Shown here piece after piece: positions 844 to 22,482 of a stretch of DNA of 32,246 bases. How positions within the stretch are numbered: position 1 is the first letter of the stretch; every line of letters begins with the position of its first letter. The notes beneath the pieces were generated by a model. It made no database searches. It saw only the letters and a program-made list of their open reading frames with translations, and was not told the DNA's origin. The stretch is from a virus. Lineage: Duplodnaviria > Caudoviricetes. Both the position numbers and the translations under genes were made by a program. The stretch covers positions 1 through 32,246 of the IMG/VR virus record IMGVR_UViG_3300014818_000018; one strand, written 5' to 3'.

Positions 844-872
844 CCCTGTTGGATCACAGGGTAGTCAGTCCA
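844..872 (+). promoter_or_regulatory. Predicted intercistronic H-type RNA pseudoknot (PK-A)
   Basis: CCCUG-U-UGGAU-CA-CAGGG-UAGUCA-GUCCA. S1 is 844-848 with 857-861; S2 is 850-854 with 868-872. Same geometry as the element at 22454-22482. Confidence 0.6.
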
Positions 873-896
873 TAAACCATCATAGGAGATAAACCG

Positions 897-1148
897 ATGG
901 CACTAACAGAAACAACACTAGACGATAAGATCGAAGTCGTAGGCGAGTTTAAGCACGTACAGGTACGCACTGCCCGTGTAATCTACGACAGTGGCACAGA
1001 GATCAGCCGCAGCTTCTCACGTCGTGTCATTGCACCAGATGCTGACATCACAGGCGAAAGCACAGAGCTACAGGCGATCTGCAATGCAGTACACACAGAC
1101 GAGGTTAAGGCTGCTTACGCTGCACACATCGCTGCACAGGAGGTCTAA
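897..1148 (+). CDS. Small fibre-associated protein (83 aa; putative fibre partner/chaperone)
   Basis: AGGAG RBS at 884-888. DKIEVVG..HVQVR...EISRSF.R.V is a family I recognise downstream of EEGTWTP-type fibres. Confidence 0.7.
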   Translation: MALTETTLDDKIEVVGEFKHVQVRTARVIYDSGTEISRSFSRRVIAPDADITGESTELQAICNAVHTDEVKAAYAAHIAAQEV

Positions 1149-1151
1149 ACT

Positions 1152-1604
1152 ATGTCAGGATACATTGGCACACAGCCAGTACCACAGGCTACCCAGACAC
1201 GGGATAGCTTCACTTGTACAGCAGGTCAGACCAGCTTCGCTACTGGTGGCTACACTCCCACGTACCTAGACGTGTACCTCAACGGTATCTTCTTGGCTAA
1301 CGGTGCTGACTACACAGCAAGCAACGGCTCAGATGTAATCCTGACAGCAGGTGCAGCAGCAGGGGACATCCTTGAGGTTGTAGCTTACACCACGTTTGAA
1401 GTGGCTAACGTCTCAGGCGGTGGCATGTTCAAGGGTGACAACGGTACTGTAGGCTCTCGTGCAGGAGACATCTTCCGCATTAACGAGCAGACCCTCAACA
1501 CAAACACAACCATTGACGCAGATGAAAACGCTTCTTGTGCTGGTCCTTTGACCCTCGCAACAGGCGTTACCCTGACAGTCAATGGCAACTTAACGGTGGT
1601 ATAG
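1152..1604 (+). CDS. Tail fibre connector/structural protein (150 aa)
   Basis: MSGYIG..P start; LDVYLNG...DYTASNGSDVILTAGAAAGD beta module, paralogous to the N-terminal part of 3..839; C-terminal NAS.AGPLTL..GVTLTV module. Confidence 0.7.
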   Translation: MSGYIGTQPVPQATQTRDSFTCTAGQTSFATGGYTPTYLDVYLNGIFLANGADYTASNGSDVILTAGAAAGDILEVVAYTTFEVANVSGGGMFKGDNGTVGSRAGDIFRINEQTLNTNTTIDADENASCAGPLTLATGVTLTVNGNLTVV

Positions 1605-2153
1605 ATGGCAGGCACACTAACAGTACAAAACTTACAAGGCCCGTCATCTGGGGCTAATGCTAATAAGATTATCGTTCCTAGTGGGCAGACTTTGGATGCT
1701 AGTGCGGGGTTTGTGCCTCCTGCGGGAAGTGTTGTGCAGGTAGTGCGAGAGTATTCCGCATCTGGCGGTCACATTGCCACCTCAAGTACATCCTTAGCGG
1801 CGTCGGGACTTACAGCGACGATAACACCTAAGTATAGCGACAGCTTGATTTTAGTCGATTTTACAACCGCAATGGCATACGTATCATCAACAGCAGGTCA
1901 CATACGTGCGGTAATGTATCAGTCAATAGGTACGGGGTCTCGTTCCGCTATGGCGGGGGCAAGTCTTTATCATGTTGGTTATAGGGAGGCTAATACTGGC
2001 TACGGCCCTATGGCGTTTGGGGGAAAGTACACAGCCTCTAGCACCACCTCACTCACTTTTGAGCCGTACTTTTTAGCAGGTAGTGCGGCTGGTGTTTATA
2101 TTGTACACAGTAGCAGTTCATGGGGCATGACTTTGACGGAGATCAAACAATGA
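1605..2153 (+). CDS. Small fibre-tip/adhesin subunit 1 (182 aa)
   Basis: N-terminal TLTVQNLQ, internal PAGSVVQVV, ITPK.S.S.ILV, C-terminal LTEIKQ; beta-rich; lies in the tail cluster. Confidence 0.65.
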   Translation: MAGTLTVQNLQGPSSGANANKIIVPSGQTLDASAGFVPPAGSVVQVVREYSASGGHIATSSTSLAASGLTATITPKYSDSLILVDFTTAMAYVSSTAGHIRAVMYQSIGTGSRSAMAGASLYHVGYREANTGYGPMAFGGKYTASSTTSLTFEPYFLAGSAAGVYIVHSSSSWGMTLTEIKQ

Positions 2154-2635
2154 GTACGCTATATGTAGATAACCTAGAGCCTAACTTGGGTAGCCAAGTA
2201 GAAATACCTGACTTGAAGCCGTTGGCGGGTAGTGTTGTGCAAGACGTAGTGGGATACAATGATACACAATACGCTTCTCCTGCCACGTCGGTATACGTTG
2301 ATACATTTTCTTTTTCTATAAATAACTGCATCGCAGGTTCGCATGTTATTGTTGAGTGCGACCCCGCAGGTTTGATGGAAAATGCTGGTAACGTCACATA
2401 CGTTATTTTCAAAGGCTCGACTGAGTTAGGACACACTAGGCACAGCGGCACGGGCAACGGCGGATGGCGTACCGCCCCTACTATGATACGGGGTACGGAT
2501 ACAAATGTTACATCTGGCACGAACACATACACGCTAAAATTCTACTCTACTGGCCCCTATATGTACCTTAACTACAATTACCCTGACGGGTATCGTTGTG
2601 TGAGTAGCTACAGAATGACGGAGATCGCACAATGA
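2150..2635 (+). CDS. Small fibre-tip/adhesin subunit 2 (161 aa; start revised from 2120 to ATG 2150)
   Basis: ATGA overlap with the upstream stop; GGAG upstream; MSTLYVDNLE, AGSVVQ and MTEIAQ make it a paralogue of 1605..2153. Confidence 0.65.
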   Translation: MSTLYVDNLEPNLGSQVEIPDLKPLAGSVVQDVVGYNDTQYASPATSVYVDTFSFSINNCIAGSHVIVECDPAGLMENAGNVTYVIFKGSTELGHTRHSGTGNGGWRTAPTMIRGTDTNVTSGTNTYTLKFYSTGPYMYLNYNYPDGYRCVSSYRMTEIAQ

Positions 2636-3114
2636 CCAGCATATTAAAAGTCGATACTCTACAAACGGCTGCGGGTGGTGTACCTACTGTGGGTGACTTG
2701 GGTGTTTCTGAAAACCCCAAGGCTATTTTTTATGCCTACCCTCCCAGCAACATCTCAGGTTCTTCTGCTGCGTGGCTGAAAATATCTAGCGGCCTCACGA
2801 TAGCCGTAGATAACGATAGCGCTTGGGATGACGCTAATTATCGCTGGGTCGCCCCTAGAGACGGCAATTACCAGATACAAGTAAATCATTTAAGCAATGG
2901 GCAGGCACACAGTGCTGTTTATTTGAACGGTTCGTCTATGCGAGGCAATCATCAAAGCCACTCTCGCCAAGGCGAAACAGGGTACAATGCGACTTCGGGG
3001 ATAAATAACATTATCTCATTAACGTCTGGGGATTATATAGAGTTTTATAACTACCTAGCTGGCGGTTACATCTACTCAGGTACATATTCAGCTTTTTCAA
3101 TTACACAGCTTTAA
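2632..3114 (+). CDS. Small fibre-tip subunit 3 with C1q-like jelly-roll (160 aa)
   Basis: MTSILKVDTLQ start. WD..NYRWVAPRDGNYQI...YLNG...ISLTSGDYIEFY...FS matches the C1q-like pattern F..P..G.Y.F...L..GD.V. Confidence 0.6.
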   Translation: MTSILKVDTLQTAAGGVPTVGDLGVSENPKAIFYAYPPSNISGSSAAWLKISSGLTIAVDNDSAWDDANYRWVAPRDGNYQIQVNHLSNGQAHSAVYLNGSSMRGNHQSHSRQGETGYNATSGINNIISLTSGDYIEFYNYLAGGYIYSGTYSAFSITQL

Positions 3115-3128
3115 CAAGGAGCGATAAA

Positions 3129-3512
3129 ATGACAACAGTTTCAAACGCACTAACAGAACTAGGCGTCACAGAGTGGGTACTCCGTGGCGAACCGACAACC
3201 GAAGCAGAGTTTGGCACTATGTTTGCCAAGGTCACTGGCGCAGATGCCAATGGCACAGCTATTGAGAGCAGCGACCCTGCTGACTGGGGTACAACATGGG
3301 CGGCTGTAGTAGCCAAGCGTGATGCACTCATCGCAGAAGAACCTCTCAAGCTACTACGTGCAGAACGTGACCGCTTGATTGCAGCTACTGACTGGTGGGC
3401 TGGCTCAGACCGCACGATGACAGCGGAACAGACAGCATACCGTCAGGATCTACGTGACATCACTTCCAGTGCAACATCACTAGATGACGTGACGTGGCCT
3501 GTAAAACCATAA
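3129..3512 (+). CDS. Tail fibre assembly chaperone-like protein (127 aa)
   Basis: AAGGAG RBS; C-terminal LRAERDRLIAATDWW...YRQDLRDIT...WPVKP chaperone signature. Confidence 0.8.
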   Translation: MTTVSNALTELGVTEWVLRGEPTTEAEFGTMFAKVTGADANGTAIESSDPADWGTTWAAVVAKRDALIAEEPLKLLRAERDRLIAATDWWAGSDRTMTAEQTAYRQDLRDITSSATSLDDVTWPVKP

Positions 3513-3524
3513 GGGGTACTCGCT

Positions 3525-3572
3525 ATGACTAAAGCAAGAGATTTAGCTGCACAGGAGTTGGGCAATGAGTAG
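3525..3572 (+). pseudogene. 15-aa mini-ORF MTKARDLAAQELGNE (collapsed fibre cassette remnant)
   Basis: TAAGGGG RBS at 3510-3516, ATG at 3525, TAG at 3570-3572 overlapping the next ATG by 8 nt. MTKARDLA is a common N-terminus of marine phage fibres. Confidence 0.6.
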
Positions 3573-4338
3573 ATCACGGGCAAGACTAGCCGCAGACTGG
3601 TTCGCAAAGCTGCGACAGAATGCAGTGACGCAGGAGATCGAACATACGGATGTTGTGGATGCTGAGACTGAGGCTCTGGAGGCAAAGGCTGACGCCGCCG
3701 CTGTCGGTATCGTTGTCGGGCCTACAGGACCTCAAGGTCCTCAAGGGGCTACAGGACCTCAAGGTCCTCAAGGGGCTACAGGTGCTGATGGTGCTGATGG
3801 AGTGCAAGGTGCTGCAGGTCCAGCTGGTTCCACAGGTCCAGCTGGTCCAGCAACTTATAATGCCAGTTCCCTTAGTGGGTACTCAATCACCCCTCAGAAC
3901 AGAAACAACACCGCAAACAGAGTAGTACGCACACAGGCTAGTGGCTATGTAGAGTTTGGTTGGATTAACACTACATCTGGTGACACAAGTAGTAGCCTAT
4001 CCAGAGTGTTTGTTGATACGGGCGATGGTTACATGCGTAAATCTACTCTGGCTCACCTCAAGAGTCAGGGGGGCTTCGGTGCTAGTACAACCGCTGGTGA
4101 TGTTGGCACTTATGCTATGCTTATGAGAACGTCTGGTGGATCAACTATTTCAGCAGGTTCTACCTACGCAGGTAGCGGTCTTAGATATTCTGGAGTTAGA
4201 GTGGGTTACAATGCGTATCATGAAGCATATAGCCCAGGTAGCATCGGAAGTACTGTTTCAGGAACATGGAGAGCTATGGGTAAGACATGGAACAACAGCG
4301 GTATTCACCCTTTAAACATCTTTGTTAGGATTTCTTAA
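3565..4338 (+). CDS. Collagen-like tail fibre protein (257 aa)
   Basis: 15 Gly-X-Y triplets (3718-3852); fibre-type motifs ANRVVRT..SGY..FGWINT.SGD and VGTYA...SGTWRAMG...FVRIS. Confidence 0.8.
   Translation: MSRSRARLAADWFAKLRQNAVTQEIEHTDVVDAETEALEAKADAAAVGIVVGPTGPQGPQGATGPQGPQGATGADGADGVQGAAGPAGSTGPAGPATYNASSLSGYSITPQNRNNTANRVVRTQASGYVEFGWINTTSGDTSSSLSRVFVDTGDGYMRKSTLAHLKSQGGFGASTTAGDVGTYAMLMRTSGGSTISAGSTYAGSGLRYSGVRVGYNAYHEAYSPGSIGSTVSGTWRAMGKTWNNSGIHPLNIFVRIS
3722..3782 (+). repeat. Exact 27-bp tandem repeat (about 2.3 copies) in the collagen region
   Basis: ctacaggacctcaaggtcctcaagggg at 3722-3748 and 3749-3775, followed by ctacagg. Confidence 0.95.
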
Positions 4339-4752
4339 ATGAGCATTATAATCACAGAAGTCCGCAATGCGGCATCTTTACAATCTGACAACCTTCGTAT
4401 GGACGTAGAGATTAACCACCCACAACACGGTTGGATACCATACACAGTAGACCCTGCTGATACTGACACAACCATCGACAATACTGCTGTCATGGCTTTG
4501 ATTGGCTCTAACTTTGCAGCTTACGTTGCACCGACACAGGCAGAGCTAGACGCAGCACTTGCGTCAGAGGTTCGTGCTGATCGGGATGGACGTCTTGCAG
4601 AAGTAGATGCTATCGCTGGTAACGCATTGCGTTGGGCTGACCTTACATCCGCCGAGCAAGCTGAGTGGTCTACATACCGTCAAGCACTATTAGACGTACC
4701 ACAACAGGCTGGCTTCCCGAATAATGTCGTGTGGCCTGTTAGGCCGACTTGA
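4339..4752 (+). CDS. Tail fibre assembly chaperone-like protein (137 aa)
   Basis: DVEINHPQHGWIPYT N-terminal motif; VRADRDGRL...W..YRQALLDVPQQAGFPNNVVWP C-terminal signature. Confidence 0.85.
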   Translation: MSIIITEVRNAASLQSDNLRMDVEINHPQHGWIPYTVDPADTDTTIDNTAVMALIGSNFAAYVAPTQAELDAALASEVRADRDGRLAEVDAIAGNALRWADLTSAEQAEWSTYRQALLDVPQQAGFPNNVVWPVRPT

Positions 4753-4753
4753 C

Positions 4754-4816
4754 GTGACGAAGAATATCATGCGGCAGGTTGATGCTGGCACACTTACAAT
4801 ACAGGATGCTGATTAA
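4754..4816 (+). pseudogene. C-terminal gene remnant (V)TKNIMRQVDAGTLTIQDAD
   Basis: Open frame from GTG 4754 (ATG 4769) to TAA 4814-4816, overlapping the next ATG (TAATG). IMRQV.AGTLTIQDAD resembles the C-terminus of a small fibre-partner family (from memory, not searched). Confidence 0.55.
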
Positions 4817-5496
4817 TGATCTTTGGTAGCTCTCCCTTTTCGATTAACGCCTTTGCTAGTACTGCAGAGACACGCTTTGACGTTCAGGGTGTAGCTGCCA
4901 CTGCATCCACTAATTCTGTTGTAACAGTATCTGCAGCTAACACGTCTATCGTAGGCGTTACATCTACTACTACAGTAGGTAATGTTGTAACGATAGCTAA
5001 GGCTGTAACACTTAGTGAGTCTGTATCTGCTACAGCTTCTCTAGGAACAACTATTGTCATTGCTAAGGCTGATGTACTACCTTCAGGGGTTGACTCTCAA
5101 GGTCTTATCGGTACAACTACAGTCTCAGGCCTAGCAAATACATCCGTGACAAGCCCAGCGCTTTCTGTTACACTTGGTAGTGCAGAGACTATTGCTGAAG
5201 CCGTAGTAGTAGCGGTAGGTGTAGCAGCTAACATTAATGCAGGTGTTGTTGAAACTCGTACTACTAACGTATTCGAGATTAGCTCTGTACCACTAAACAT
5301 CTATACGAAACGACCTGCAGTTGATGCGGAGCAGTTTGACTACGCTTCACTTAAGGATAGTTATAGCAGGAACAGGGTAGTCTACGTAGAGGCTACTTCA
5401 CAGAGATTTACTGTCCTAGTCCCTGCAGATCACGCACAAAGAACCGTACACATTGAGGCTCCTAACACGGATAGAGTTGTCCGTATAGCAGCATAA
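4816..5496 (+). CDS. Virion structural protein, V/T/S/A-rich (226 aa)
   Basis: MIFGSSPFS..AFA N-terminus; low-complexity beta-repeat composition; tail cluster context. Confidence 0.6.
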   Translation: MIFGSSPFSINAFASTAETRFDVQGVAATASTNSVVTVSAANTSIVGVTSTTTVGNVVTIAKAVTLSESVSATASLGTTIVIAKADVLPSGVDSQGLIGTTTVSGLANTSVTSPALSVTLGSAETIAEAVVVAVGVAANINAGVVETRTTNVFEISSVPLNIYTKRPAVDAEQFDYASLKDSYSRNRVVYVEATSQRFTVLVPADHAQRTVHIEAPNTDRVVRIAA

Positions 5497-5507
5497 GGAA
5501 CATACTG

Positions 5508-5825
5508 ATGTCATACAAATGGCCTGATAAAGATAAAGATGAGATATTAGACTACAGTGTAGACTGGTCACGTTTCTTGGGTGATGATAACATATCTGGT
5601 GTAACTTGGTACATCAACGATGCTTCTGGTGTTAAGACCGAAGTAGACGCTGCAGACGTAGTAAATGGTTTGCAGATGGTACAGAAAACTAATACACTGA
5701 ACGTAGCCACTATTCGTCTTTCCTTAGGAACTAACAACATACGTTATACTATTACGTGTAAGGTTACTTCTGTAGAAGGCTTGCAGTATGAGCGGTCTAT
5801 CTTTGTACGTGTTAAGGAGAAGTAA
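5508..5825 (+). CDS. Putative fibre-tail adaptor (105 aa)
   Basis: TAAGGA RBS; KD.DE.LDYSVDW..FL and Y.ITC...T..G...ER motifs. Confidence 0.6.
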   Translation: MSYKWPDKDKDEILDYSVDWSRFLGDDNISGVTWYINDASGVKTEVDAADVVNGLQMVQKTNTLNVATIRLSLGTNNIRYTITCKVTSVEGLQYERSIFVRVKEK

Positions 5826-5827
5826 GA

Positions 5828-6517
5828 ATGGCATATGATTTCATTGGTTTGGTTAATGATGTTAACCGCCGCCTTAACGAAGTAGAACTAACTACAGCAA
5901 ACTTCGCTGGTGCACAGGGTTACTATAACTTGACTAAGGATGCAGTTAACGCATCTATGCGTCATATCCATCAGGAAGAGTTTGAGTGGCCGTGGAACCA
6001 TGCTGAGGAAGAAGAGATTCTAACTCCTGGTGAAGTTCGCTATAGTATGCCTTACAACAGTAAGACAGTTAACATGAACAGCTTCCGTATTAAACGGGAT
6101 GAAGCTTTAGGTATTGGTACTAGCAAGCTAAAAGTGCTAAACTACGAAGAATATCTTGACAAGTATGTGGATGCTGAGTATAACTCTGGGGAAGATGTAA
6201 GAGGTGTACCTAAGTTTGTTGTTCGTGCACCTAGTCGTGAACTTCTCTTTGTTCCATCACCTAAAGATGCATATGAAGTAGTCTATGAATACTACGCTAC
6301 GGGTGTAGACATGACTCTTTTCTCAGATGTCCCTGAAATACCTGAACAGTATCGCCACACCATTGTAGACGGTGCTATGTATTACGCATACGTATTCCGT
6401 GGTGATATGCAAGCAGCAGGCTTATCAGAGTCTAAGTTTAAGGCGGGTATTAAGAATATGCGTTCTGTTAACATTAACCGCACTGAGTACCTTCGAGATA
6501 CACGAGTACACTACTGA
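5828..6517 (+). CDS. Head-tail adaptor / tail tubular protein A-like (229 aa)
   Basis: LVNDVNRRLNE, EWPW, P.P..AYEV.YEYY and D.PEIPEQY...IV.GA motifs; lies directly before the nozzle-like gene. Confidence 0.7.
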   Translation: MAYDFIGLVNDVNRRLNEVELTTANFAGAQGYYNLTKDAVNASMRHIHQEEFEWPWNHAEEEEILTPGEVRYSMPYNSKTVNMNSFRIKRDEALGIGTSKLKVLNYEEYLDKYVDAEYNSGEDVRGVPKFVVRAPSRELLFVPSPKDAYEVVYEYYATGVDMTLFSDVPEIPEQYRHTIVDGAMYYAYVFRGDMQAAGLSESKFKAGIKNMRSVNINRTEYLRDTRVHY

Positions 6518-8052
6518 TGGCTACTAATTGGCAGACATTCCCTATTGAGTTTAAAGGTGGTCTCATCTCTAATCTCAGCCCTCTTCAGCAGGGTGCAAAT
6601 GCTGTTGGTTCTGCTACTATCCTGCAGAACTTCGAGCCTGCACGTTCTGGTGGTTACACTAAGCTGCAGGGTTATGTGAAAGCAGATGATGCAGTAGTAC
6701 CTGGTTCAGGGCGTGTTCTGGGTGTTAAAGTAGTTAACCCTAGTGAGTACATTGCAGCTAGAAGTAATGGTTCTGTCACAGAGTACCACCTGTCAACAGG
6801 AAGCGGCTGGTCTAGCTTAGGTACTACAGCACTTGCTGGTGGTAAGATTCGTAGTACAGAGTATAACTTTGGTGCGGGTCACTTTGTAATCTTTGTAGAT
6901 GGGACTAATGCTCCTAAACTGTACAATGACACAACAAACACTCTCTCAGACATCACCTCAAACACAGATATACAGGGTGCTGAGCAGGTAGCGATCTTTA
7001 AGAATACAGTGTTTTTCTCTAAGGGTTCTAATCTTTATTTCTCTGCTCCCTCTAGCTCTACAGACTTTAGTTCCGCTAATGGTGGCGGTGTTATTAACGT
7101 AAGTCACGGCATTACAGGTCTTATCTCTTTCCGTGATCAACTTATCATCTTTAGCCGTAACAACATTCAACGTCTCTCAGGTACAACATTAGCTGACTTC
7201 CAACTCAGTCCTATTACTGAGAGTATTGGTTGTCTTGACCCTGATACCATCCAAGAGGTTGGCGGTGACGTTATGTATATGTCACCTGATGGTATTCGTC
7301 TCCTAGGTGCTACGGATCGTATTGGTGACTTTGCACTTGAGGTTGCTTCTGACCCTATCGCTGATGACGTTTATAAGTTTGCTCAGAGTACTTCTAACTT
7401 TTGCTCTATCGTTGTTCGAGAGAAGGCACAGTATCGCATCTTTGCTTACACAGAATCAGAACAGTCTAAGGTTGCTCGTGGGTTGCTTGTAACTAAGTTC
7501 TCTAACCAAGGTGCTGAGAGTATGGCATGGGGTGAGAGTTCAGGTATTAAAGCCTACGTAGCGGATTCTAAGTACACATCTTCTGCAGAAACTATTGTGT
7601 TTGCTAATGAAGACGGTTATCTTTACCAAATGGAGCAAGGATCTAGCTTTGATGGTGCTTCCATTGAGGCTATTTATGAATCTCCTTACATGCCTATCTC
7701 TGACCCACAGATACGTAAAACATTCTACAAGTTAACTTCTTACATTGATCCTAAGGGTTCATTCTCTTTAGACTTATCAACTAAGTATGACTTTACACGA
7801 GCTAATAACCAGAACCTGATTCAACCTGCTTCTACGACTATTACCAGTACGGGCTTGGCAGTATCTTTCTACGGGGCTGTTGTTTCTCGTTACAACACTG
7901 CTACATATGGTGGTGAGCTAGACAAGGTTTATCAGAATCAGATCATCGGCTCAGGCAAGACTATTTCAATCCGTATTGAAGATAACTCAACAAACCCTTC
8001 ATTCACACTAGATACTGTTCTACTAGAGTTTACTCAGAATGACAGGCAATAA
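6517..8052 (+). CDS. Tail nozzle / tail tubular protein B-like (511 aa)
   Basis: F.GGL N-terminus; propeller-like repeats (LYFS, ITGL..FRDQLIIF, IGC..PDTIQEVGGDV.Y.SPDGIR); podovirus synteny. Confidence 0.75.
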   Translation: MATNWQTFPIEFKGGLISNLSPLQQGANAVGSATILQNFEPARSGGYTKLQGYVKADDAVVPGSGRVLGVKVVNPSEYIAARSNGSVTEYHLSTGSGWSSLGTTALAGGKIRSTEYNFGAGHFVIFVDGTNAPKLYNDTTNTLSDITSNTDIQGAEQVAIFKNTVFFSKGSNLYFSAPSSSTDFSSANGGGVINVSHGITGLISFRDQLIIFSRNNIQRLSGTTLADFQLSPITESIGCLDPDTIQEVGGDVMYMSPDGIRLLGATDRIGDFALEVASDPIADDVYKFAQSTSNFCSIVVREKAQYRIFAYTESEQSKVARGLLVTKFSNQGAESMAWGESSGIKAYVADSKYTSSAETIVFANEDGYLYQMEQGSSFDGASIEAIYESPYMPISDPQIRKTFYKLTSYIDPKGSFSLDLSTKYDFTRANNQNLIQPASTTITSTGLAVSFYGAVVSRYNTATYGGELDKVYQNQIIGSGKTISIRIEDNSTNPSFTLDTVLLEFTQNDRQ

Positions 8053-8067
8053 TAAGGAATACCTCTG

Positions 8068-10391: not shown

Positions 10392-10402
10392 GGATTTTTC
10401 AT

Positions 10403-10945: not shown

Positions 10946-10947
10946 TA

Positions 10948-11205: not shown

Positions 11206-11216
11206 GGACTAATATT

Positions 11217-13283: not shown

Positions 13284-13305
13284 TAGGGTCTCAAAGGATT
13301 ACATA

Positions 13306-14901: not shown

Positions 14902-15323
14902 TGTTTGGCTTACCTTTAGAACTCATCACAATGTTATTCTCAACGATCCTAGGTGGCGTAATGTCCATCTGGGGTCAATCTAATAAGAACAAGGCTGAAC
15001 ACCAACGCGCATTAGTTGGTGCAGTTAGCCAAGCACGTGAGCACGGCAAGACAGACGTACACTTTGCATGGACACGCCGTATCATTGCTCTATCTGCTGT
15101 GTTCTCTATTATCGTATTGCCAAAGCTAGTGGCTGTATGGTATCCTGAAGTAAGCGTAGTAGTAGGTTATACAGAGATGCAGGGTGGTTTCTGGAACTGG
15201 ATCTTTGGTACTACCGAGGCTATTGAATGGAAGTCTGCTTATGGCTTCGTAATAACCCCCCTAGACACTCATATTGTTTCAGCCATTGTAGGACTCTACT
15301 TCGGCGCAGGTTTCACAAAGTAA
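14901..15323 (+). CDS. Holin-like membrane protein, 3 predicted TM segments (140 aa)
   Basis: Hydrophobic N-terminal helix, W.RRIIAL... helix and terminal IVGLYFG; TAATG-coupled to the muramidase-like gene. Confidence 0.55.
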   Translation: MFGLPLELITMLFSTILGGVMSIWGQSNKNKAEHQRALVGAVSQAREHGKTDVHFAWTRRIIALSAVFSIIVLPKLVAVWYPEVSVVVGYTEMQGGFWNWIFGTTEAIEWKSAYGFVITPLDTHIVSAIVGLYFGAGFTK

Positions 15324-15332
15324 GGTATTATA

Positions 15333-15872
15333 ATGTTTGAAGCACCCATTCCAGGTCAGTCCTTGACTACAGAACCCCGTAACGTCCCTTGGGAGAACCC
15401 TGCTGAATTGTCAGACGTGGGTGAGATCCTTGAGTTCTACATCAAAAAGTTAGCTAATGACGAAGTTATGGATGACATTGTAGCCATGCTCGACATGGGT
15501 GTCTCTGTTAAGTCTGTTGTTACAGGTCTTTACAGACAAGGCGCTCTAAGAGGTATGCACACAGTAGACGCAGGTATCCTTGTAGCTCCTACTCTTCACG
15601 CCTTTATCTTTGCAGCCGCTAAAGAGATGGGTACAGATGTTATTGAAGAGAATGTTGACCCAGACAAACGTGCTTCACGTAAAGAGAAGGATCGTTTCAT
15701 CGCCTTGACTATGAAGTATATGGAATCAGGTGTTGAAGAAGACGAAGGTACTGACTTGCTAAAAGACATGTCAGAAGCCTTGGCAGAGGGATCAGACGAT
15801 GAACCTCAAGAAGAACCTACGATGGAACCACAAGAAGAAGCCCCTATGGGTCTCATGGCTAAAGGAGCTTAA
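15333..15872 (+). CDS. Putative virion protein (179 aa)
   Basis: F.APIPGQSLT.EP...PWE.P N-terminus; acidic tail ending GLMAKGA. Confidence 0.6.
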   Translation: MFEAPIPGQSLTTEPRNVPWENPAELSDVGEILEFYIKKLANDEVMDDIVAMLDMGVSVKSVVTGLYRQGALRGMHTVDAGILVAPTLHAFIFAAAKEMGTDVIEENVDPDKRASRKEKDRFIALTMKYMESGVEEDEGTDLLKDMSEALAEGSDDEPQEEPTMEPQEEAPMGLMAKGA

Positions 15873-15874
15873 TC

Positions 15875-17386
15875 ATGGCGTTTAATTGGGAAGACTTCGC
15901 TGCGGGGTTTCTACAGCAGACTAATGTAGAGTTAGACGCAAGGTCTGCTGAAGCGGAGACACTGAAGCGTGAGCAAAAAGTAGAGGCTCGTCGTAACGCT
16001 CCTCTTATTCAACAACGTAAAGCACGTGCTCGTCAAGCTGCTCAACTAGGTTCAAAGGCTAAGGCTCTTGGTGCTACAGACGCACAACTTGCAGTAGCGT
16101 TAAACTCAGGTGTAGCTGGTATTCAAGACTTCACAAATAAACTTCAACAAGCTGCGTCGCAACGAGGTATCAAGACCTTGAGCAAGTTTGACATTGAAGC
16201 TATTATTGATATGCCTGACATTCCTTCTGTAGATATGTCCTACGAAGATATGGTTCAGCAGGTCTATGGTGCACGGCCAACTCAAACAGAAGTTCAGGGC
16301 GAAACTCCCTTCTGGGCACAGGCTCTAGGTCTTACTGCAGTTCAGGATGCTGAGCGTGAATTGGCCACAGATACTTTCTCACAAGGTATGACTATCCAAC
16401 AGATCAACGACATGGCTGCGTCTAGCGAGTATTCTAAGATTGCAGGTATGGAAGGTTCGTTTGTCAATTACTTGGATACTCCATTCTTTGATAGCCCTAA
16501 AGCACTCGACTTTGTAACTACAATGTCTAAGACTATTTCAGACGTGGAAGAGACAAGAGGCTTTACAGAATTAAATTATGACTTAGAACAAAAAGTTAAT
16601 CGTGGTGAAATATCCCGTGAAGACGCCTCAGAGAAACTTGCAAGTTATGTAGCAGAAGCAGCTAACCTTGAAACATCTTTGATCGGTATGGGAGACGCTT
16701 ACAAGTCTTCCTTCTTCACAAACCCTGTTATGCAGAAGTTCTTTGAGGACTATCTACCTGAAGGTATGTTAGACAGGGTTTCTAAACCTTACACAACACC
16801 TCAGTCTGTAGAAGATTCTGTAGCTGAAGATGTTCCTGCTGCTGTATCTGATGATGTGGCTAGTGACGTAGCTAAGCCAGGTGAAGCAACCGTACCTGAG
16901 GTTACTACGACAGAGTTGAAAGACGAGACTACCTTTGAACCTTTAACTACTGAAGAAAAGGCTTTGATTAACAAACGTCTAGGTATGTTCGCTATCTTCT
17001 CAGAGCCAGAAGACAAGTATGTAGAAGATTACACGCGTGAACAGTGGAAAAAGATGAAGCGTAGCGAACGTAAACGTCTAGGCCTGCCTGAGTCTGCACT
17101 AGGTGGCAAGAACATTTACTTCCGTGATGAAATCCAAGAGATCTTAGATGACGGTCCTAAGGAAAGCAGTCTGCGTAAGAACTTCAACCAGACACGCTAC
17201 AAGGTAAAAGTTCGTGGTAAGATCGGTGCTTTCCACGTCACCAAAGAACAGTTCGAAGCTATGGACGACAAGTGGTTCGAGGGTGATCGACCAGAGTTGA
17301 CCGCTGAGGTCTATGAGGATGACGAAGATAACGTCAAGAAACTCACATCTAAACTTATGAAACGCTACACTACAGGAGCTAAATAA
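15875..17386 (+). CDS. Putative internal virion protein (503 aa)
   Basis: AAGGAG RBS; F.AGF N-terminus, helical and charged; positioned like T7 gp15. Confidence 0.55.
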   Translation: MAFNWEDFAAGFLQQTNVELDARSAEAETLKREQKVEARRNAPLIQQRKARARQAAQLGSKAKALGATDAQLAVALNSGVAGIQDFTNKLQQAASQRGIKTLSKFDIEAIIDMPDIPSVDMSYEDMVQQVYGARPTQTEVQGETPFWAQALGLTAVQDAERELATDTFSQGMTIQQINDMAASSEYSKIAGMEGSFVNYLDTPFFDSPKALDFVTTMSKTISDVEETRGFTELNYDLEQKVNRGEISREDASEKLASYVAEAANLETSLIGMGDAYKSSFFTNPVMQKFFEDYLPEGMLDRVSKPYTTPQSVEDSVAEDVPAAVSDDVASDVAKPGEATVPEVTTTELKDETTFEPLTTEEKALINKRLGMFAIFSEPEDKYVEDYTREQWKKMKRSERKRLGLPESALGGKNIYFRDEIQEILDDGPKESSLRKNFNQTRYKVKVRGKIGAFHVTKEQFEAMDDKWFEGDRPELTAEVYEDDEDNVKKLTSKLMKRYTTGAK

Positions 17387-20300
17387 TGGCTAATAGGTAC
17401 GCGCAGGGACGGTTTGGAGAGTCTTCTTCTCCATCGTTCAACCCTGAGGGTTTTGAGATCGACAAGGAAACCACTCTTAAGAAGGATGACCTGTTAGACT
17501 ACAAGAACCTTCAACCAATCAAACAGTACATGATTGAACGTAAGGGTGTAGACTACCAAGACAAACCAGACCAAGAAGTCGTAGATGACTTTGTTGAGCA
17601 TATGCGTTTCTTCAATGCGAACACTGTAAGCACTGCAGGTGAAGCCCGTTTCATTAGCAAAGCAGATGATCGTCAGAAGAAAGTAGCAGGTGCAGCTTAC
17701 CAAGTGTACGACCAACTAGGTAACGTGTTTGTTAACGATGGTTTCTTTGGCGCTGTTAGCGGTGTTGGTGAGTATGTAGAGGCATTAGCTAAAGATCCCT
17801 CCAACTATATCGGTTTAATCACTGGCGGTGTTGCTCGTGCAGGTGCTGCAGGTATTTCCGTGTCTGGTAAGCAGGCAGTTAAGGCTGCTGTTAAGAAAGC
17901 TGGTCGCGACTCTATGCGTTCTGGTGCGTCTAAAGAAGCAGCTAAGGCGATGGCTAACAATGCGGCTGTTGAGGCTGCTAAGCGGTTTGTAACTGCAGGT
18001 GCATCTAGCAAGTCTGCAGGTAAAGTGTTCCAGAAAGTATCTGAGGAAGCGTACAAGAAAGGTCGTAGTGGTCTAGCTCTTCAGGCTATGAAAGAACAGC
18101 AGGAACAACTCTTCAAAGAGGCTGGTACTCGTGCTCTTAAGCAGACCTTTGCTGCTGATTCATTCATGGCTGTCGCTCAGGACGTACAAGCACAGAACGT
18201 CATGATTGAGGCAGGTGCTCAGGAAGATTTCTCTGCCCTACAGACAGGTTTCAGTGCGGCACTAGGTGGTATCGGTGGTGGTATTGCTCTGGCTGCAGGT
18301 AAAGCTAAAGGTATTAGCGGATTAGACGCTTCTATGGACCCTCTTAAGAGAGTCGAGAAGGATGTTCTTGCTGTCAACACCCCTGCTGTTAGTAAGGCTG
18401 ACTCAACGAAAGCTGCTAAGGCTATCACTAAAGAGGTTGACGACTGGGCTGTAAAAGTAGCTCGTGGTAACGAGATGTCAGACCAAGCGATGCCTGTTCA
18501 GCTAGTTAAGAATATCTTGTTCGGTGAAGACAATAAGTCTGGTCTGGCCCAAGTCTTTCAAGAGAGCGGCTACCAGATGAAGGGCAAGACAATCTCTGAT
18601 GTTATCACAAACGTGGCACTGGTTCTTCCTGATGAAGAGCTAACCCGTTTGAACTCTAAGATTGAACCACTTGTAGGTTTTACTCTTGGTGATCTATCAG
18701 GTAATCAAACTTCAGTGGCTGACTTCCTAGCTAAGACTGCTAGTGATGCAGGTAAAAACCTTAACGCATTTGGTCAACTTAAGAAACTTCTTAACACGTC
18801 TGTCATGGCGTCTAGTGAAACACTCGCAGCACGTATGCTTGAACCTGGTTCGGCTGCGGCTATTGAGGCGGAGAAAGCTGCACTGAAGTCTGACAAACTA
18901 GCCTATGGTCAATCTGTCTGGAAGCGTTTGCTTGTATCCTCACCTGCTACCACAGCCTTGAACATTGCAGGTTACACTCAGTTTGCTGCAGGCACAGCGA
19001 TGGCTGATCTGTTTGGTGCTTCAGGTTATGTTCTAAAAGGTCTTGGACAGGGTGGCCCAGCCACTTCAGCAGGTAGGGAGTCCCTTCGTAAGGCTAACGC
19101 TCTTGTATCCCTACAGGCTCAGAAGATCGCTAACCTGATGGACCCCTTCACCACGCATGATGCGTATATGAAGTTCCTTGATCAGAACGAAGAGGTAAAG
19201 GATAAACTTTTTGCAACTATTGCAGGTGGTATTGACTCAGGTGCTAAGAAGTTTGGGATCGACCCATCCTCACCGTACTACAAGAAGATTGAGGCTGTTA
19301 CAGTAGCAGCTAACCAGATCACTGGTGTACGTATTCAAGATAGTTTCACCAAGTCCCAGATGTTTATGTCTGAGATTGATAAAACGCTACGTGTAGACTT
19401 CGGAACTTCCCTTAAAGAGGTTCTACGTAATGGTGAGGAAGGTATTATTGACGAGGCAATTCTTTCCAAGGCACTAGGCAATACTCTTGAGTCAGTTTTC
19501 TCAACAGACTACACAACCAAGGAAACACCAGAGCTACTACGTAATGCAGCTAAGGCAGTTGAGACTATCTCAAACACACCAGGTCTCGGTACAATCCTTC
19601 CCTTTGGGCGTTTCTTTAACAACGTGCTGGCGTACTCCTACAAATGGTCGCCCTTCGCAGGTGGTGGTGTAGGCCTTCGCGCTATAGGTCGCATCGCCCG
19701 CACCCGTAAGTTGGACGGCACATTTGCTGGTGAAGGTGAAGCTACTGCACGAGCAATGGTAGGCACAACCTTCCTACTTACAATGGCTGAGTATGATAAA
19801 GGTCGTCGTGAGAAGGGCTTGGCTTACTACGAAATGGAAGGTGATGGCGGTACAATCATTGATGCTAAGAACACTTTCCCGCTTTCAATGTATCTTGCTG
19901 CTGCTCGTTGGACACGCCTCAAGTTGGATGGCGAGACTGTACCTAAAGAGTTGAACGAAGAGATGTTAGCTCAACTCGCTGTAGGACAACTAGCCAAGGA
20001 TGCTCAGTTCAGCAATGACCTTCTCAACATCATGGATGCTTTCTCCAATGGTGGCGAAGGTGGACGCGGTGTGGATATGAAAGCCTTTGCTAAAGTTACA
20101 GGTAACTTAGTAGCTGGTGTTGCTCGTCCTCTTGACGCAGTTAACCGTGCAGTAGGTTTCATCACTGAGGAAGACGTAGCTAAGGATATGCGTCAGGCAG
20201 ACAGTGGTCTGGAGACATTTACTCAGGCTTCGACAAAGTACTTTGATAATATCTTGGAGGCGTTCTCTGATAAGACAGAAACCATCACTGGCGAGTCTTT

Positions 20301-20823
20301 GCGTGTAGCGACTAGGGAAGGGGATATTTATGATGCCAATCCTTTTGCTCGGATATTCGGTATCAATGTGAAGCAAGGGCGTACAGCTACTGAGAAAGTT
20401 TACTCAATGGCTGAGATGCACCCTTGGCAGGCTTCTGAACGTACGAAGATCCCAGCGTACGACAGGATGCTGAACGAAGTCTTAGCTCCGCAGCTTGAGA
20501 GACAAACACAAAGGTTGTTGGACTCTGATCGGTTTAAGAATGCTAATCTAGATAAGCGTAGAACAATGCTTAAGAAGCTGGTTAGCGATATTAAGCGAGA
20601 TGTCCGAAAGGATACTGCTAAGGGTGTATCAGGCCCAGAGGCTTCTCGACTAAGACTAGCTACTATGGCTAACAGTCGAGGCAGTAAAGAGGTCCGTACT
20701 GAAGCAATGAAGTTCATGAAGGATCGCTTTGGTGTAGATGGGAAGTTAGAAGACTTTAGTTTCTCGGAGCTAGACATCTTCATAGACTTTGTTGATGCAC
20801 TAAAAGATGACTACCAACTATAA
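17386..20823 (+). CDS. Large internal virion protein (1145 aa)
   Basis: Last and largest gene of the structural arm; DPSNYIG plus G/A-rich hydrophobic segments; PF.RF..N motif; positioned like T7 gp16. Confidence 0.65.
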   Translation: MANRYAQGRFGESSSPSFNPEGFEIDKETTLKKDDLLDYKNLQPIKQYMIERKGVDYQDKPDQEVVDDFVEHMRFFNANTVSTAGEARFISKADDRQKKVAGAAYQVYDQLGNVFVNDGFFGAVSGVGEYVEALAKDPSNYIGLITGGVARAGAAGISVSGKQAVKAAVKKAGRDSMRSGASKEAAKAMANNAAVEAAKRFVTAGASSKSAGKVFQKVSEEAYKKGRSGLALQAMKEQQEQLFKEAGTRALKQTFAADSFMAVAQDVQAQNVMIEAGAQEDFSALQTGFSAALGGIGGGIALAAGKAKGISGLDASMDPLKRVEKDVLAVNTPAVSKADSTKAAKAITKEVDDWAVKVARGNEMSDQAMPVQLVKNILFGEDNKSGLAQVFQESGYQMKGKTISDVITNVALVLPDEELTRLNSKIEPLVGFTLGDLSGNQTSVADFLAKTASDAGKNLNAFGQLKKLLNTSVMASSETLAARMLEPGSAAAIEAEKAALKSDKLAYGQSVWKRLLVSSPATTALNIAGYTQFAAGTAMADLFGASGYVLKGLGQGGPATSAGRESLRKANALVSLQAQKIANLMDPFTTHDAYMKFLDQNEEVKDKLFATIAGGIDSGAKKFGIDPSSPYYKKIEAVTVAANQITGVRIQDSFTKSQMFMSEIDKTLRVDFGTSLKEVLRNGEEGIIDEAILSKALGNTLESVFSTDYTTKETPELLRNAAKAVETISNTPGLGTILPFGRFFNNVLAYSYKWSPFAGGGVGLRAIGRIARTRKLDGTFAGEGEATARAMVGTTFLLTMAEYDKGRREKGLAYYEMEGDGGTIIDAKNTFPLSMYLAAARWTRLKLDGETVPKELNEEMLAQLAVGQLAKDAQFSNDLLNIMDAFSNGGEGGRGVDMKAFAKVTGNLVAGVARPLDAVNRAVGFITEEDVAKDMRQADSGLETFTQASTKYFDNILEAFSDKTETITGESLRVATREGDIYDANPFARIFGINVKQGRTATEKVYSMAEMHPWQASERTKIPAYDRMLNEVLAPQLERQTQRLLDSDRFKNANLDKRRTMLKKLVSDIKRDVRKDTAKGVSGPEASRLRLATMANSRGSKEVRTEAMKFMKDRFGVDGKLEDFSFSELDIFIDFVDALKDDYQL

Positions 20824-20825
20824 AC

Positions 20826-20862
20826 AAAAAGGGGGAGCCGTTAAGCTCCCCTTAATTATTTT
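20826..20862. terminator. Bidirectional rho-independent terminator
   Basis: aaaaa-g-ggggagc-cgttaa-gctcccc-ttaattatttt: 7-bp GC-rich stem with A-tract on the left and T-rich tract on the right, between the convergent arms. Confidence 0.9.
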
Positions 20863-21059
20863 ACCCCGTGTACTTCTGCACAGTTTTGAGACCATAATAA
20901 GAAAAGTGTTAAACTCTTAAGAGCCTCGTCTCGTTGGTCTGAGGAGTGTATATTATCCTCCACATACTGAACTAAGGGTTGGAGGTACTCTTCAATACCT
21001 TTTTTAAACTGTGTCTGCTTACCTCCAGAGAAGGCTACAGCTTCTTGTTCTAATTTCAT
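20856..21059 (-). CDS. Hypothetical helical protein (67 aa), weak resemblance to Acb2/Tad1-type hairpin proteins
   Basis: GAAGG upstream; pattern R..AL..L....LW in the C-terminal helix. Confidence 0.55.
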   Translation of the reverse strand: MKLEQEAVAFSGGKQTQFKKGIEEYLQPLVQYVEDNIHSSDQRDEALKSLTLFLLWSQNCAEVHGVK

Positions 21060-21060
21060 G

Positions 21061-21771
21061 TTAGAGACCTTCTTTCATGAACACCTTTACCCACTCAGCA
21101 CAGATACCACTACGTACAATATCATCTATGCCGAACTCAACAACAGGGACATCAAGCAGATGTTTCTTAGCGAGATGAATGACCTTAGCTAGGCCAGACG
21201 TACCCTTAAGATCCGACTGTTGAATATCCCCATTTAGTACGATAGTACTACCTTCACCTACACGTGTCAAGAGCATCTTGATTTCAGCTACTTCGATGTT
21301 CTGTGCTTCGTCTACGATAATGAAGGCATTGTCAAAGCTACGACCACGCATCAGCGCCAGTGTAGCAACTTCAATGTTTCCTGCCTTGAGAGCCGTATCT
21401 ACTGCACCCTTGCTGAGATGCTTTGTAAGGACGTCTAACACTGGTAAGGCCCAAGGTTGAGCCTTTTCCTCTAGTGTGCCTGGGAGGTACCCTATATCAC
21501 GTCCTACAGCTACGTGTGGCCGTGTGATAACAATCTTGTCAATCTCTTTGAGAGTATACAAGTCTGCAGCACATGTAGCCGTTACGTAAGTCTTACCTGT
21601 ACCTGCTGGACCTAGGATGAGAACCTGCTTACTAGACTTAATAGCCTTGATAAGTTTGTCTTGGTTCTCAGTCTTGGGTAGCATACCTGACACAGGCTTA
21701 GTGGAGGCACCCTTGTAGGTAGTCTTACGTCGGGAACGTGTTTGCTTCTTTGGCGGTTCGTTATCGTTCAT
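21061..21771 (-). CDS. phoH: PhoH-like ATPase
   Basis: GPAGTGKT, IVITRP, IGYLPG.L.EK..PW, MRGRSF, DEAQN, LLTRVG and GD..QSDL motifs. Confidence 0.95.
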   Translation of the reverse strand: MNDNEPPKKQTRSRRKTTYKGASTKPVSGMLPKTENQDKLIKAIKSSKQVLILGPAGTGKTYVTATCAADLYTLKEIDKIVITRPHVAVGRDIGYLPGTLEEKAQPWALPVLDVLTKHLSKGAVDTALKAGNIEVATLALMRGRSFDNAFIIVDEAQNIEVAEIKMLLTRVGEGSTIVLNGDIQQSDLKGTSGLAKVIHLAKKHLLDVPVVEFGIDDIVRSGICAEWVKVFMKEGL

Positions 21772-22180
21772 AGTGATTCCTTAAGTATGCTAAGCCTTTT
21801 TCTAGGCCTTCTACATTATCACCTAGTTTACCTAGACCTGTGTTGCAAGAGTAGCAAAGCCAGCCCCTAAACTCTAGTGTATCATGGTCGTGATCTAAGC
21901 AGTATTTATCTCCAAGAGGCTTGTTACAGCAATCACAAAAGCCTGATGTAGGAGGTGCTGTTTCTCTTAGTTTTGTGGCTACATTATTGTTCACTGCATA
22001 GCAAGACTTGCACTTTGCGTTGTGGCTAACTGTAGGCTCTGCCTTTAGCTTGTGTGTTCTTGTATACATTACGTAATACTCTGATAGAGGCTTACCTTGT
22101 CCACAGTCAGAACAAATCTTTAGGTCGTTACCTGTATATTTCTTAGTAGACTCTACGTACTCAAATAAATCTCCCTGCAC
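21761..22180 (-). CDS. Endonuclease VII-like (His-Me finger) nuclease, possible homing endonuclease
   Basis: CxxC...LDHDH.T..FRGWLC..CN.GLG.LGD signature, plus an N-terminal CxxC...CxxC zinc finger. Confidence 0.85.
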   Translation of the reverse strand: MQGDLFEYVESTKKYTGNDLKICSDCGQGKPLSEYYVMYTRTHKLKAEPTVSHNAKCKSCYAVNNNVATKLRETAPPTSGFCDCCNKPLGDKYCLDHDHDTLEFRGWLCYSCNTGLGKLGDNVEGLEKGLAYLRNHYER

Positions 22181-22181
22181 A

Positions 22182-22427
22182 TCAGTATTCCTTCTTACCG
22201 ATAAACTCCGATAGTTCTTCTAGTTCCCTATAACCACCTACAAGATTACCATTGGCTGCAAACACCTGTGGTACCGTCTTGATGTTAGCCTCTTTCATGA
22301 GTGACAACACCCACTTACTTGAACCTTCTTCGATGTTGTACGTCGTGAAGTTGATGCCTCTGTCTTTAAGTAGCGTCTTAGCCATGTCGCAGTACTTACA
22401 GTTGTTTCGTGTGATGATAGTGTACAT
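22182..22427 (-). CDS. grx: Glutaredoxin
   Basis: CKYC active site, TVPQVF and GGY motifs; close to the RNR gene. Confidence 0.92.
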   Translation of the reverse strand: MYTIITRNNCKYCDMAKTLLKDRGINFTTYNIEEGSSKWVLSLMKEANIKTVPQVFAANGNLVGGYRELEELSEFIGKKEY

Positions 22428-22453
22428 GTCGGTCCCTTATGAAATATAAGTCG

Positions 22454-22482
22454 TGAGCCTTTTAACCACGTACTCAGGTGGT
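22454..22482 (-). promoter_or_regulatory. Predicted intercistronic H-type RNA pseudoknot (PK-B)
   Basis: Minus-strand RNA ACCAC-C-UGAGU-AC-GUGGU-UAAAAG-GCUCA; S1 is ACCAC/GUGGU, S2 is UGAGU/GCUCA. Confidence 0.65.

What the first reader, a model, noticed from the sequence alone, without database searches (positions are those of the whole stretch)
844..22482. Two sequence-divergent, geometrically identical intercistronic pseudoknots placed 4 nt after UAA stops
Seen: PK-A (+, 844-872) is CCCUG-U-UGGAU-CA-CAGGG-UAGUCA-GUCCA and PK-B (-, 22482-22454) is ACCAC-C-UGAGU-AC-GUGGU-UAAAAG-GCUCA. Both are 29 nt with 5-bp S1, 1-nt pyrimidine L1, 5-bp S2 (UGnnU/GnnCA with a U-G pair at the junction), 2-nt L2 and a 6-nt L3 starting UA. 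Both follow UAA-C(C/G)AC, lie on the transcribed strand of their arm, and end 24 and 26 nt before the AUG of a small gene (fibre partner; glutaredoxin). The stems differ in sequence but keep pairing, which amounts to covariation within one genome. Inference: a reusable phage cis-RNA element I cannot assign to a known family. Possible roles are an exoribonuclease block that stabilises sub-operon mRNAs, a termination-coupled re-initiation element, or a protein operator as with the T4 gene 32 pseudoknot. Stop readthrough would not fuse the flanking genes (extra in-frame TAA at 873-875; frame mismatch at PK-B).
Basis: partly seen in the sequence, partly recalled or inferred. Interest (0 to 1): 0.85.

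Follow-up and report, generated by a model that had tools for sequence, protein, structure and literature searches.

The report
Coremin-like pseudoknot between phage genes
One of the two elements belongs to a tiny predicted RNA pseudoknot family found between genes in thousands of phage sequences; it resembles a plant-virus nuclease barrier and likely shields phage messages from decay, while the other element is a separate conserved hairpin that merely fits the same shape.

Summary
Both sequences are as described, in a cobavirus-like roseophage, but they are not one element. PK-B (22482-22454, before glutaredoxin) belongs to a 24-25-nt H-type pseudoknot family present in thousands of viral contigs. 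Both of its stems covary: S1 143/143 and 142/143; S2 A-U to G-C in 109/113. It is in 29 of 35 glutaredoxin loci. It usually starts just outside a terminating ribosome (8-nt cliff after the stop) and closely resembles the coremin Xrn1-resistant RNA. True coremin motifs occur beside it in three loci, and it weakly matches Rfam GP20-b. It lacks coremin's required second hairpin, so it is a relative, not a member. Best reading (about 0.42, untested): a 5'-facing barrier to RNase J that stabilises downstream sub-operon mRNA. Rivals: a 3'-end cap (it often precedes tRNAs, ribozymes or U-tracts) and a bumper for terminating ribosomes. PK-A is a different element tied to one tail-fibre partner gene: a covarying hairpin plus spacer whose S2 is possible in 30/50 variants and never compensated. 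The shared geometry and '4 nt' spacing are not conserved. The scan noted this pseudoknot family before on other DNA.

The parts
22454..22482 (-). PK-B: member of the widespread phage H-type pseudoknot family, AAAA-G subtype. S1 22482-22478/22469-22465; L1 C 22477; S2 22476-22472/22458-22454 plus A22471.G22459 junction; L2 C 22470; L3 22464-22460
22487..22633 (-). 48-aa ORF whose UAA lies 8 nt before the invariant C of PK-B; present between RNR and the pseudoknot in 7 of 35 loci
   Evidence: no Pfam or PHROG hit
22182..22427 (-). glutaredoxin, first gene downstream of PK-B, with its own SD-like sequence
   Evidence: PF00462 E 2e-12
22824..24722 (-). class II (B12-dependent) ribonucleotide reductase; directly precedes the pseudoknot in most relatives
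20830..20853 (.). terminator-like inverted repeat found on both strands between the two convergent arms; likely end of the PK-B transcription unit
844..861 (+). PK-A hairpin (6 bp, 6-nt loop); the stem covaries across relatives
862..872 (+). PK-A conserved spacer UAGUCAG and tail UCCA; loop-tail pairing (S2) possible but not compensated
897..1148 (+). 83-aa phrog_6228 protein of unknown function next to tail-fibre genes; the PK-A element travels with this gene
3..839 (+). upstream ORF (5'-open, 278 aa) whose UAA precedes PK-A; the equivalent gene end is highly variable in relatives

Best explanation
PK-B is a predicted compact H-type RNA pseudoknot of a family widespread between phage genes, and it likely works as a coremin-like, 5'-facing mechanical barrier that would halt the host 5'-to-3' exoribonuclease RNase J and so leave a stable message for the downstream genes (here glutaredoxin onward). 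Shown by comparison: both stems, the conserved loop bases, the junction covariation (C-U versus A-G), the position after stop codons and the likeness to coremin. Inferred: that the RNA folds this way in the cell; that the extra Watson-Crick pairs of S2 replace coremin's second hairpin; that it cannot sit closer than about 6 nt to the stop because a terminating ribosome would melt it or be stalled by it; and that RNase J is the machine it stops. PK-A is a separate hairpin-plus-spacer element of the tail-fibre partner gene, likely a boundary or operator element, and probably not an obligatory pseudoknot.
For: Structure: with only the core fixed, S1 pairs -1 and -2 are Watson-Crick in 143/143 and 142/143 distinct viral members (shuffle maxima 78 and 65) and 56/57 in the window's own subtype. 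S2 pair 5-23 becomes G-C in 109/113 when A5 is excluded; pair 4-24 is A-U in 78, C-G in 5 and U-A in 2 of 113 when G4 is excluded. Position 19 is A in 105 of 113 members with G20. Likeness: coremin is a 3-4-bp hairpin, a loop starting with Y and ending A-D, then a spacer with AAACUAC. The Xrn1-resistant RnHV2 loop CGAGUAA is the phage loop minus one U, and a GAG-CUC S2 was shown resistant (PMC10520033; PMC10321173). Coremin-type motifs (hexaloop CGCAAU twice, tetraloop CGAA once) lie beside family members in L939, L1066 and L612; L939 is in provirus record G001. RNase J (PF17770) was found in 62 of 84 genomes with a true member against 15 of 33 with a chance match, Fisher p = 0.005. In three Firmicute phages it lies between portal or minor-head genes and scaffold or capsid genes. 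A flavivirus xrRNA blocks RNase J1 in vitro (PMC5760640).
Against: Coremin's required second hairpin is not enriched: 39/410 against 29-39 in shuffles, and none at PK-B by that test. The phage loop has U at position 2, not the G of YG(NN)AD. In coremin, changing spacer C18U19 to AA abolishes stalling (PMC6546385), and PK-B has A-G at the matching place. In 616 pooled members, 7 are followed by a hammerhead or twister core (0 upstream), 29 by a tRNA signature (11 upstream) and 99 by a U-tract (controls 14-20); there a 5' shield for the downstream RNA makes little sense. 22 of 84 host genomes gave no RNase J hit, and true members occur in a crAss-like phage and a Vibrio phage. The RNase J enrichment is not corrected for kinship, bin contamination or incompleteness. 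There is no RNA-end or probing evidence: the one RNA run was contigs of relatives. The predicted minimum-energy fold of PK-B's spacer is an alternative long hairpin (the program cannot model pseudoknots).
Confidence: 0.42

Rival explanations
1. The pseudoknot caps the 3' end of the upstream message. After RNase P, a ribozyme, an endonuclease or U-tract termination makes an end a few bases downstream, the knot stops 3'-to-5' exonucleases, as terminator hairpins and REP elements do (recalled). Here it would stabilise the RNR message. It may also block both directions, like chloroplast intercistronic PPR10 sites (recalled).
For: tRNAs start 4-13 nt downstream in 11 of 139 viral members with 0 upstream. 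Hammerhead and twister cores lie downstream only. U-tracts follow in 99/616 against 14-20 in controls. A convergent gene without a detected sense gene follows in 8/81, 1/49 and 15/84 members. The distance to the upstream stop is tight while the distance to the downstream start is broad. It does not need RNase J.
Against: Any hairpin would serve, so near-invariant unpaired bases and a covarying junction are not explained. SD plus start follows within 60 nt in 223/616 (control 44), as at PK-B, which has no U-tract. Protecting portal or minor-head messages rather than scaffold and capsid would be odd (inference).
Confidence: 0.28
2. The knot is a bumper for ribosomes. It sits at the mRNA entry channel of a ribosome paused on the stop codon, aids release, and blocks post-termination sliding or re-initiation, insulating the downstream ribosome-binding site, tRNA or ribozyme (a hard form of the 'ribosome termination structure').
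For: Stop-to-C1 distance: 39 members at 8 nt, 28 at 9, and only 6 of 194 below 8; PK-B is at 8. Coremin stalls scanning ribosomes and promotes frameshifting in vitro. It fits every downstream context and every host. In CRP-5, where RNR and grx overlap, the knot is absent. The RTS concept is from PMC7518266 (search listing only).
Against: Many members lie far from any stop (77 of 271 had none within 60 nt; a long tail beyond 20 nt; 53 nt after RNR in five cobavirus loci). The cliff is equally explained by tight packing against the ribosome footprint. It does not explain the RNase J skew.
Confidence: 0.2
3. One reading: PK-A and PK-B are one reusable element defined by geometry, or a protein operator like the T4 gene 32 pseudoknot (recalled).
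For: The two are the only strict descriptor hits. In the window's own PK-A subtype, S2 of 4 or more pairs is possible in 51 of 56 variants.
Against: PK-A lacks the family's C-G closing pair, L1 C and AAA. Its S2 shows no compensatory change, and each strand persists without the other; only 29 of 75 in the second subtype can pair. The PK-B family precedes unrelated genes in unrelated hosts, which argues against one phage protein ligand.
Confidence: 0.08

Closest known systems
Coremin motif (xrRNA-C) and its Watson-Crick variant xrRNA-WCC of beny-, cucumo-, hypo- and other RNA viruses (PMC6546385, PMC10520033, PMC10321173)
   Same: Short first stem closed by C-G, loop opening with C and ending A-D, spacer with an AAA run followed by C-U-R-C, GAG-CUC pairing in the WC variant, placement shortly after a stop codon, tandem copies; coremin-type motifs co-occur with the phage family in three loci.
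   Different: Phage loop has 8 nt with U at position 2 and a 5-6-pair S2; no conserved second hairpin; PK-B has A-G where coremin needs C-U; found in dsDNA phages and prokaryote genomes; nuclease resistance untested.
Rfam RF03003 GP20-b RNA (cis-reg; source taken to be Weinberg 2017, PMC5737381, recalled; main text does not mention GP20, supplement not readable)
   Same: Its 5' half aligns on family members at 20-26.5 bits in 5 loci: S2 falls on the model's first hairpin, with the AAAA run and flanking S1 halves in register. Both occur before scaffold genes (name of the motif).
   Different: All scores are below the gathering score of 36.2. The window gives no GP20-b hit. The model has a different S2 sequence, no S1 pairing in the covariance model, and a second element that PK-B lacks.
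Class 3 plant-virus xrRNA (xrRNA-LT/D; PMC6299227, PMC12397905)
   Same: Pseudoknot nuclease block, mostly intergenic and upstream of coding sub-genomic RNAs: the same logic as the best explanation. PK-A, a long hairpin with loop-to-tail pairing, resembles it superficially.
   Different: 54-nt minimal element in ST9a with stacked P1/P2, a T-loop cap and a ring round the 5' end. Neither PK-A nor PK-B shows a P1 helix or T-loop, and PK-A's loop-tail pairing is not conserved.
T4/T2 gene 32 autoregulatory pseudoknot (recalled, no call)
   Same: Compact H-type geometry with a 1-nt L1 in a phage intergenic leader.
   Different: One gene and one protein ligand; no sequence likeness tested; the PK-B family is not tied to one gene.

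Membership tests
coremin xrRNA-C / WCC | hp1 of 3-5 bp closed by C-G | tested here: met
   PK-B S1 5 bp closed by C-G; family S1 3-4 bp typical
coremin xrRNA-C / WCC | loop consensus YGAD / YG(N2+)AD (xrRNA-C) or GGNG (WCC) | tested here: not met
   PK-B loop CUGAGUAC: U at position 2 and C last; family CUGAGYAW
coremin xrRNA-C / WCC | spacer with AAA then C-U | tested here: not met
   Met by the main phage subtype (AAAC-U), not by PK-B (AAAA-G); C18U19 to AA kills coremin
coremin xrRNA-C / WCC | second hairpin hp2 directly after the spacer | tested here: not met
   39/410 against shuffles 29-39; none at PK-B by the test
coremin xrRNA-C / WCC | resistance to a 5'-3' exoribonuclease | not testable with these tools
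   needs an in vitro assay
Rfam GP20-b (RF03003) | score at or above gathering 36.2 bits | tested here: not met
   window no hit; relatives 20.5-26.5 bits
Rfam GP20-b (RF03003) | upstream of a GP20/scaffold gene | tested here: not met
   PK-B precedes glutaredoxin; met by some relatives
widespread phage pseudoknot family (this work): PK-B | CC-U-RRG-Y-A-N-G core, S1 of 3 bp or more, AAA-(CU or AG)-RCYY, intergenic on the sense strand | tested here: met
widespread phage pseudoknot family (this work): PK-A | same core | tested here: not met
   no C-G closure, L1 C or AAA run
class 3 xrRNA | P1/P2 stacked helices, T-loop, conserved loop-to-3' pseudoknot | tested here: not met
   by inspection of PK-A variants; S2 lost in 20/50
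readthrough or frameshift stimulator | open frame or slippery heptamer before the knot | tested here: not met
   15/147 open frames; 10/271 slippery-like heptamers; window frames closed

The most novel reading that the evidence does not exclude
Bacteriophages and other prokaryotic mobile elements carry thousands of copies of an exoribonuclease-resistant RNA homologous to the coremin motif of eukaryotic RNA viruses: one 25-base fold used across domains of life, against Xrn1 in plants and fungi and RNase J in bacteria, to carve stable sub-operon messages. The phage form, with a full Watson-Crick second stem, would be a protein-free bacterial xrRNA (none found in my literature searches) and a tractable route to the unsolved coremin structure.
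Probability: 0.4. Interest if true: 0.88.

Novelty: new variant of a known kind. Interest (0 to 1): 0.7.

Why it matters
No paper in the library links xrRNA, phage and RNase J, and the papers read say coremin's structure is unsolved. A covarying, Watson-Crick phage relative with thousands of natural variants gives a pairing model and a junction covariation (C-U versus A-G) that can be tested directly. It would explain how compact phage operons tune gene dosage without internal promoters, and it could offer a 25-nt mRNA stabiliser for bacteria. It is present unannotated in cultured phages (SIO1, ICBM1-3, CRP-6, Amigo, StB12, KC5a, S-RIM4), so the test is within reach.

Tried and rejected
Rfam on the window: two chance hits only. 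Readthrough and frameshifting rejected. One shared element for PK-A and PK-B rejected. An attC-like site or DGR target hairpin for PK-A was considered from recall and dropped: no closing GTTRRRY box by eye, and no reverse transcriptase among the 44 ORFs scanned (the record is partial). RNA evidence: 4 runs listed, one RNA run at 0.05 share; contigs only, mostly under 95% alike, no ends, so not used. Gene-insertion polarity in cobaviruses (7 loci with ORFs inserted upstream of the knot, 1 downstream) does not separate the models and the loci were picked by grx. CPR genome contexts (18 loci) were mostly small unknown genes, not informative. Atlas search of the PK-A partner protein: only unnamed viral clusters. 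BLAST of four 35-nt queries against cultured phages is insensitive, so absence from enterobacterial phages is not shown; of 8 hits fetched, 6 were true members, 1 degenerate (poppyseed) and 1 false (YerA41). Paper searches by motif letters or phrases found nothing on this family. The Minerva preprint passages do not describe it. The Weinberg 2017 supplement could not be read and may describe GP20-b's pseudoknot; the figure on RNase J distribution in PMC3071783 was not visible.
Full report
Observation. The strict descriptor finds only 844(+) and 22482(-); 300 dinucleotide shuffles give 0.24 hits on average and two or more in 2.3%. The descriptor was fitted to these sites and looser geometries hit many coding places, so relatives had to decide. 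Rfam gives no real hit on the window.

Genome. The 32-kb record has convergent arms, tail and structural genes on +, and primase-helicase, polymerase, class II RNR, glutaredoxin and PhoH on -. Its RNR is 79% identical to those of Roseobacter phages CRP-5 and CRP-6 and Lentibacter phage ICBM2; CRP-5 is filed under Cobavirinae. A roseobacter host is inferred.

PK-B is a family member. Of the 35 glutaredoxin loci at 60% identity or more (47 were returned; the 12 distant ones were not mapped), 29 carry the motif, 28 of them 20-28 nt before grx; so does CRP-6, with a compensated S2 pair, while CRP-5, where RNR and grx overlap, does not. A core pattern matches an estimated 6,600 viral stretches (from 2 of 64 parts) and 790 prokaryote-genome stretches. 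In 143 distinct viral members the two S1 pairs left free by the pattern are Watson-Crick in 143 and 142 (shuffle maxima 78 and 65). S2 was tested by forbidding the usual base and freeing its partner. Pair 5-23 became G-C in 109 of 113 S1-valid hits (125 distinct). Pair 4-24 was A-U in 78, C-G in 5, U-A in 2 and mismatched in 28 of 113 (120 distinct). The U3-A25 pair is optional (A in 105/143). These are sequence counts, not independent events. PK-B itself is a recurrent subtype: its exact core occurs in 92 stretches (S1 56/57), about 1,400 stretches have a non-U at position 20, and positions 19-20 switch together from C-U to A-G (105 of 113 with G20), which points to a tertiary junction contact (inference).

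Position. Members are intergenic (1 of 136 inside a sense ORF) and 120 of 136 follow a sense-strand stop within 80 nt (antisense control 55). Pooled, the distance from stop to the invariant C is 8 nt in 39, 9 nt in 28 and under 8 in 6 of 194 (271 examined). PK-B is at 8; its '4 nt' only reflects a 5-bp S1. The core stem thus starts about 6 nt after the stop, where the mRNA leaves a terminating ribosome (established knowledge, recalled). Downstream, among 616 pooled members: SD plus start within 60 nt in 223 (control 44), U-tract in 99 (controls 14-20), tRNA signature in 29 (11 upstream), hammerhead or twister core in 7 (0 upstream) (tRNAs confirmed by ARAGORN, ribozymes by Rfam, mostly below gathering score). 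Readthrough or frameshift contexts are rare.

Known relatives. The family resembles coremin, the Xrn1-resistant motif of plant and fungal RNA viruses. I read PMC10520033 parts 1-4 of 6 and passages of PMC10321173 and PMC6546385. Shared: a short stem closed by C-G, a loop from C to A-D, an AAA-C-U spacer. The resistant RnHV2 heptaloop is the phage loop minus one U, and a GAG-CUC second stem is resistant. Coremin-type motifs lie next to family members in L939, L1066 and L612; L939 is in a 16-kb provirus record. Membership still fails on loop consensus, on the second hairpin (39/410 against 29-39) and, for PK-B, on the C-U spacer. Rfam GP20-b aligns to some members at 20.5-26.5 bits against a threshold of 36.2, so a related knot is probably already catalogued in one gene context; the supplement that might say so was unreadable. 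Class 3 xrRNAs (PMC12397905: abstract, section 19 part 1 of 3, section 25; PMC6299227: passages) share the logic but not the fold. Searches for a description in phages found none.

Hosts. PF17770 (RNase J) was found in 62 of 84 genomes holding a true member and 15 of 33 holding only a chance match (p = 0.005; uncorrected for kinship, and many are bins). BLAST hits between genes came from cultured phages of alphaproteobacteria, Firmicutes, Actinobacteria and cyanobacteria. Of 8 fetched, 6 were true members, including a crAss-like phage and a Vibrio phage, whose hosts I recall as lacking RNase J. A flavivirus xrRNA stops RNase J1 in vitro (PMC5760640 passages).

Mechanism. A fold conserved down to unpaired bases, and akin to a tested 5'-3' block, suggests a mechanical barrier facing upstream. 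I put stopping RNase J to stabilise downstream cistrons at 0.42, capping the upstream message's 3' end at 0.28 (tRNA, ribozyme, U-tract and convergent contexts) and insulating against terminating ribosomes at 0.20 (the cliff). These can coexist. All functional steps are inferred; no RNA-end data were available.

PK-A. In 78 of the 80 loci of the 83-aa phrog_6228 gene (two too near a contig end), 69 carry a hairpin plus a YNGWCAG-type spacer, in 50 distinct forms. Pattern scans found it with a hairpin almost only before this gene family. The stem covaries freely and starts from 0 to about 6 nt after the stop (read by eye). The loop-tail pairing of 4 or more pairs survives in 30 of 50 forms. Twelve keep the UCC tail without the GGA loop, five keep the loop without the tail, and none compensates. 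It is possible in 51/56 of the window's subtype and 29/75 of the other (3' strand fixed by the pattern). PK-A may form a pseudoknot here, but selection on it is not shown. It is best read as a gene-linked boundary or operator hairpin at the swap point of variable fibre genes (inference; function about as open as before).

Verdict. Half the finding is a real, widespread and probably important RNA element; the pairing of the two sites is coincidental. New variant of a known kind; interest 0.7. Earlier notes of this scan report the same family in other genomes; they gave leads, which I tested here, and are not counted as support.

Noticed in passing
L1096 (G002:C138:5500-14000): Array of 7-8 family pseudoknots in 5.5 kb between small genes, with three twister-like ribozymes, one starting a few bases after a knot, and a coremin-type tetraloop motif (seen in L612 from the same genome).
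   Followed up: partly
L1095 10046-10100 (-); L1066; L983; L1007: Tandem knots: family member followed by a coremin hexaloop motif or by a second family member, like tandem xrRNAs of RNA viruses.
   Followed up: partly
L1104 1200-1268; L591, L598, L231: After the knot, a second hairpin plus A-rich spacer (the 3' half of GP20-b) that could be another WC-coremin-like pseudoknot before scaffold genes.
   Followed up: no
L505-L625 range, e.g. L509, L512, L514, L517, L532, L552: Many true members lie in tiny Saccharibacteria and other CPR genomes, often 1-3 per genome with none in reversed-pattern controls.
   Followed up: partly
L009 5127-5437; L017 upstream of 7412: tRNA-like sequences sit directly before glutaredoxin in two cobavirus-like contigs, with or in place of the knot.
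   Followed up: no
L057, L058, L091, L121, L023, L030, L032, L125: PK-A-type elements in which the UCCA tail is replaced by a conserved 5-bp GUGGC/GCCAC hairpin: modular 3' ends.
   Followed up: partly
L321: PK-A element and SD retained in front of an HNH-like ORF instead of the usual phrog_6228 gene (identity judged by eye).
   Followed up: no
window 24723-24777 (-): 6-7-bp hairpin overlapping the MazG-like stop codon just before RNR.
   Followed up: no
window 897-4752 (+): Run of several short tail-fibre and fibre-assembly modules, suggesting a mosaic receptor-binding region.
   Followed up: no
L1101 799-825 (+): Vibrio phage D456 carries a variant with C at position 3, facing convergently annotated genes: a member in a gammaproteobacterial phage.
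   Followed up: partly
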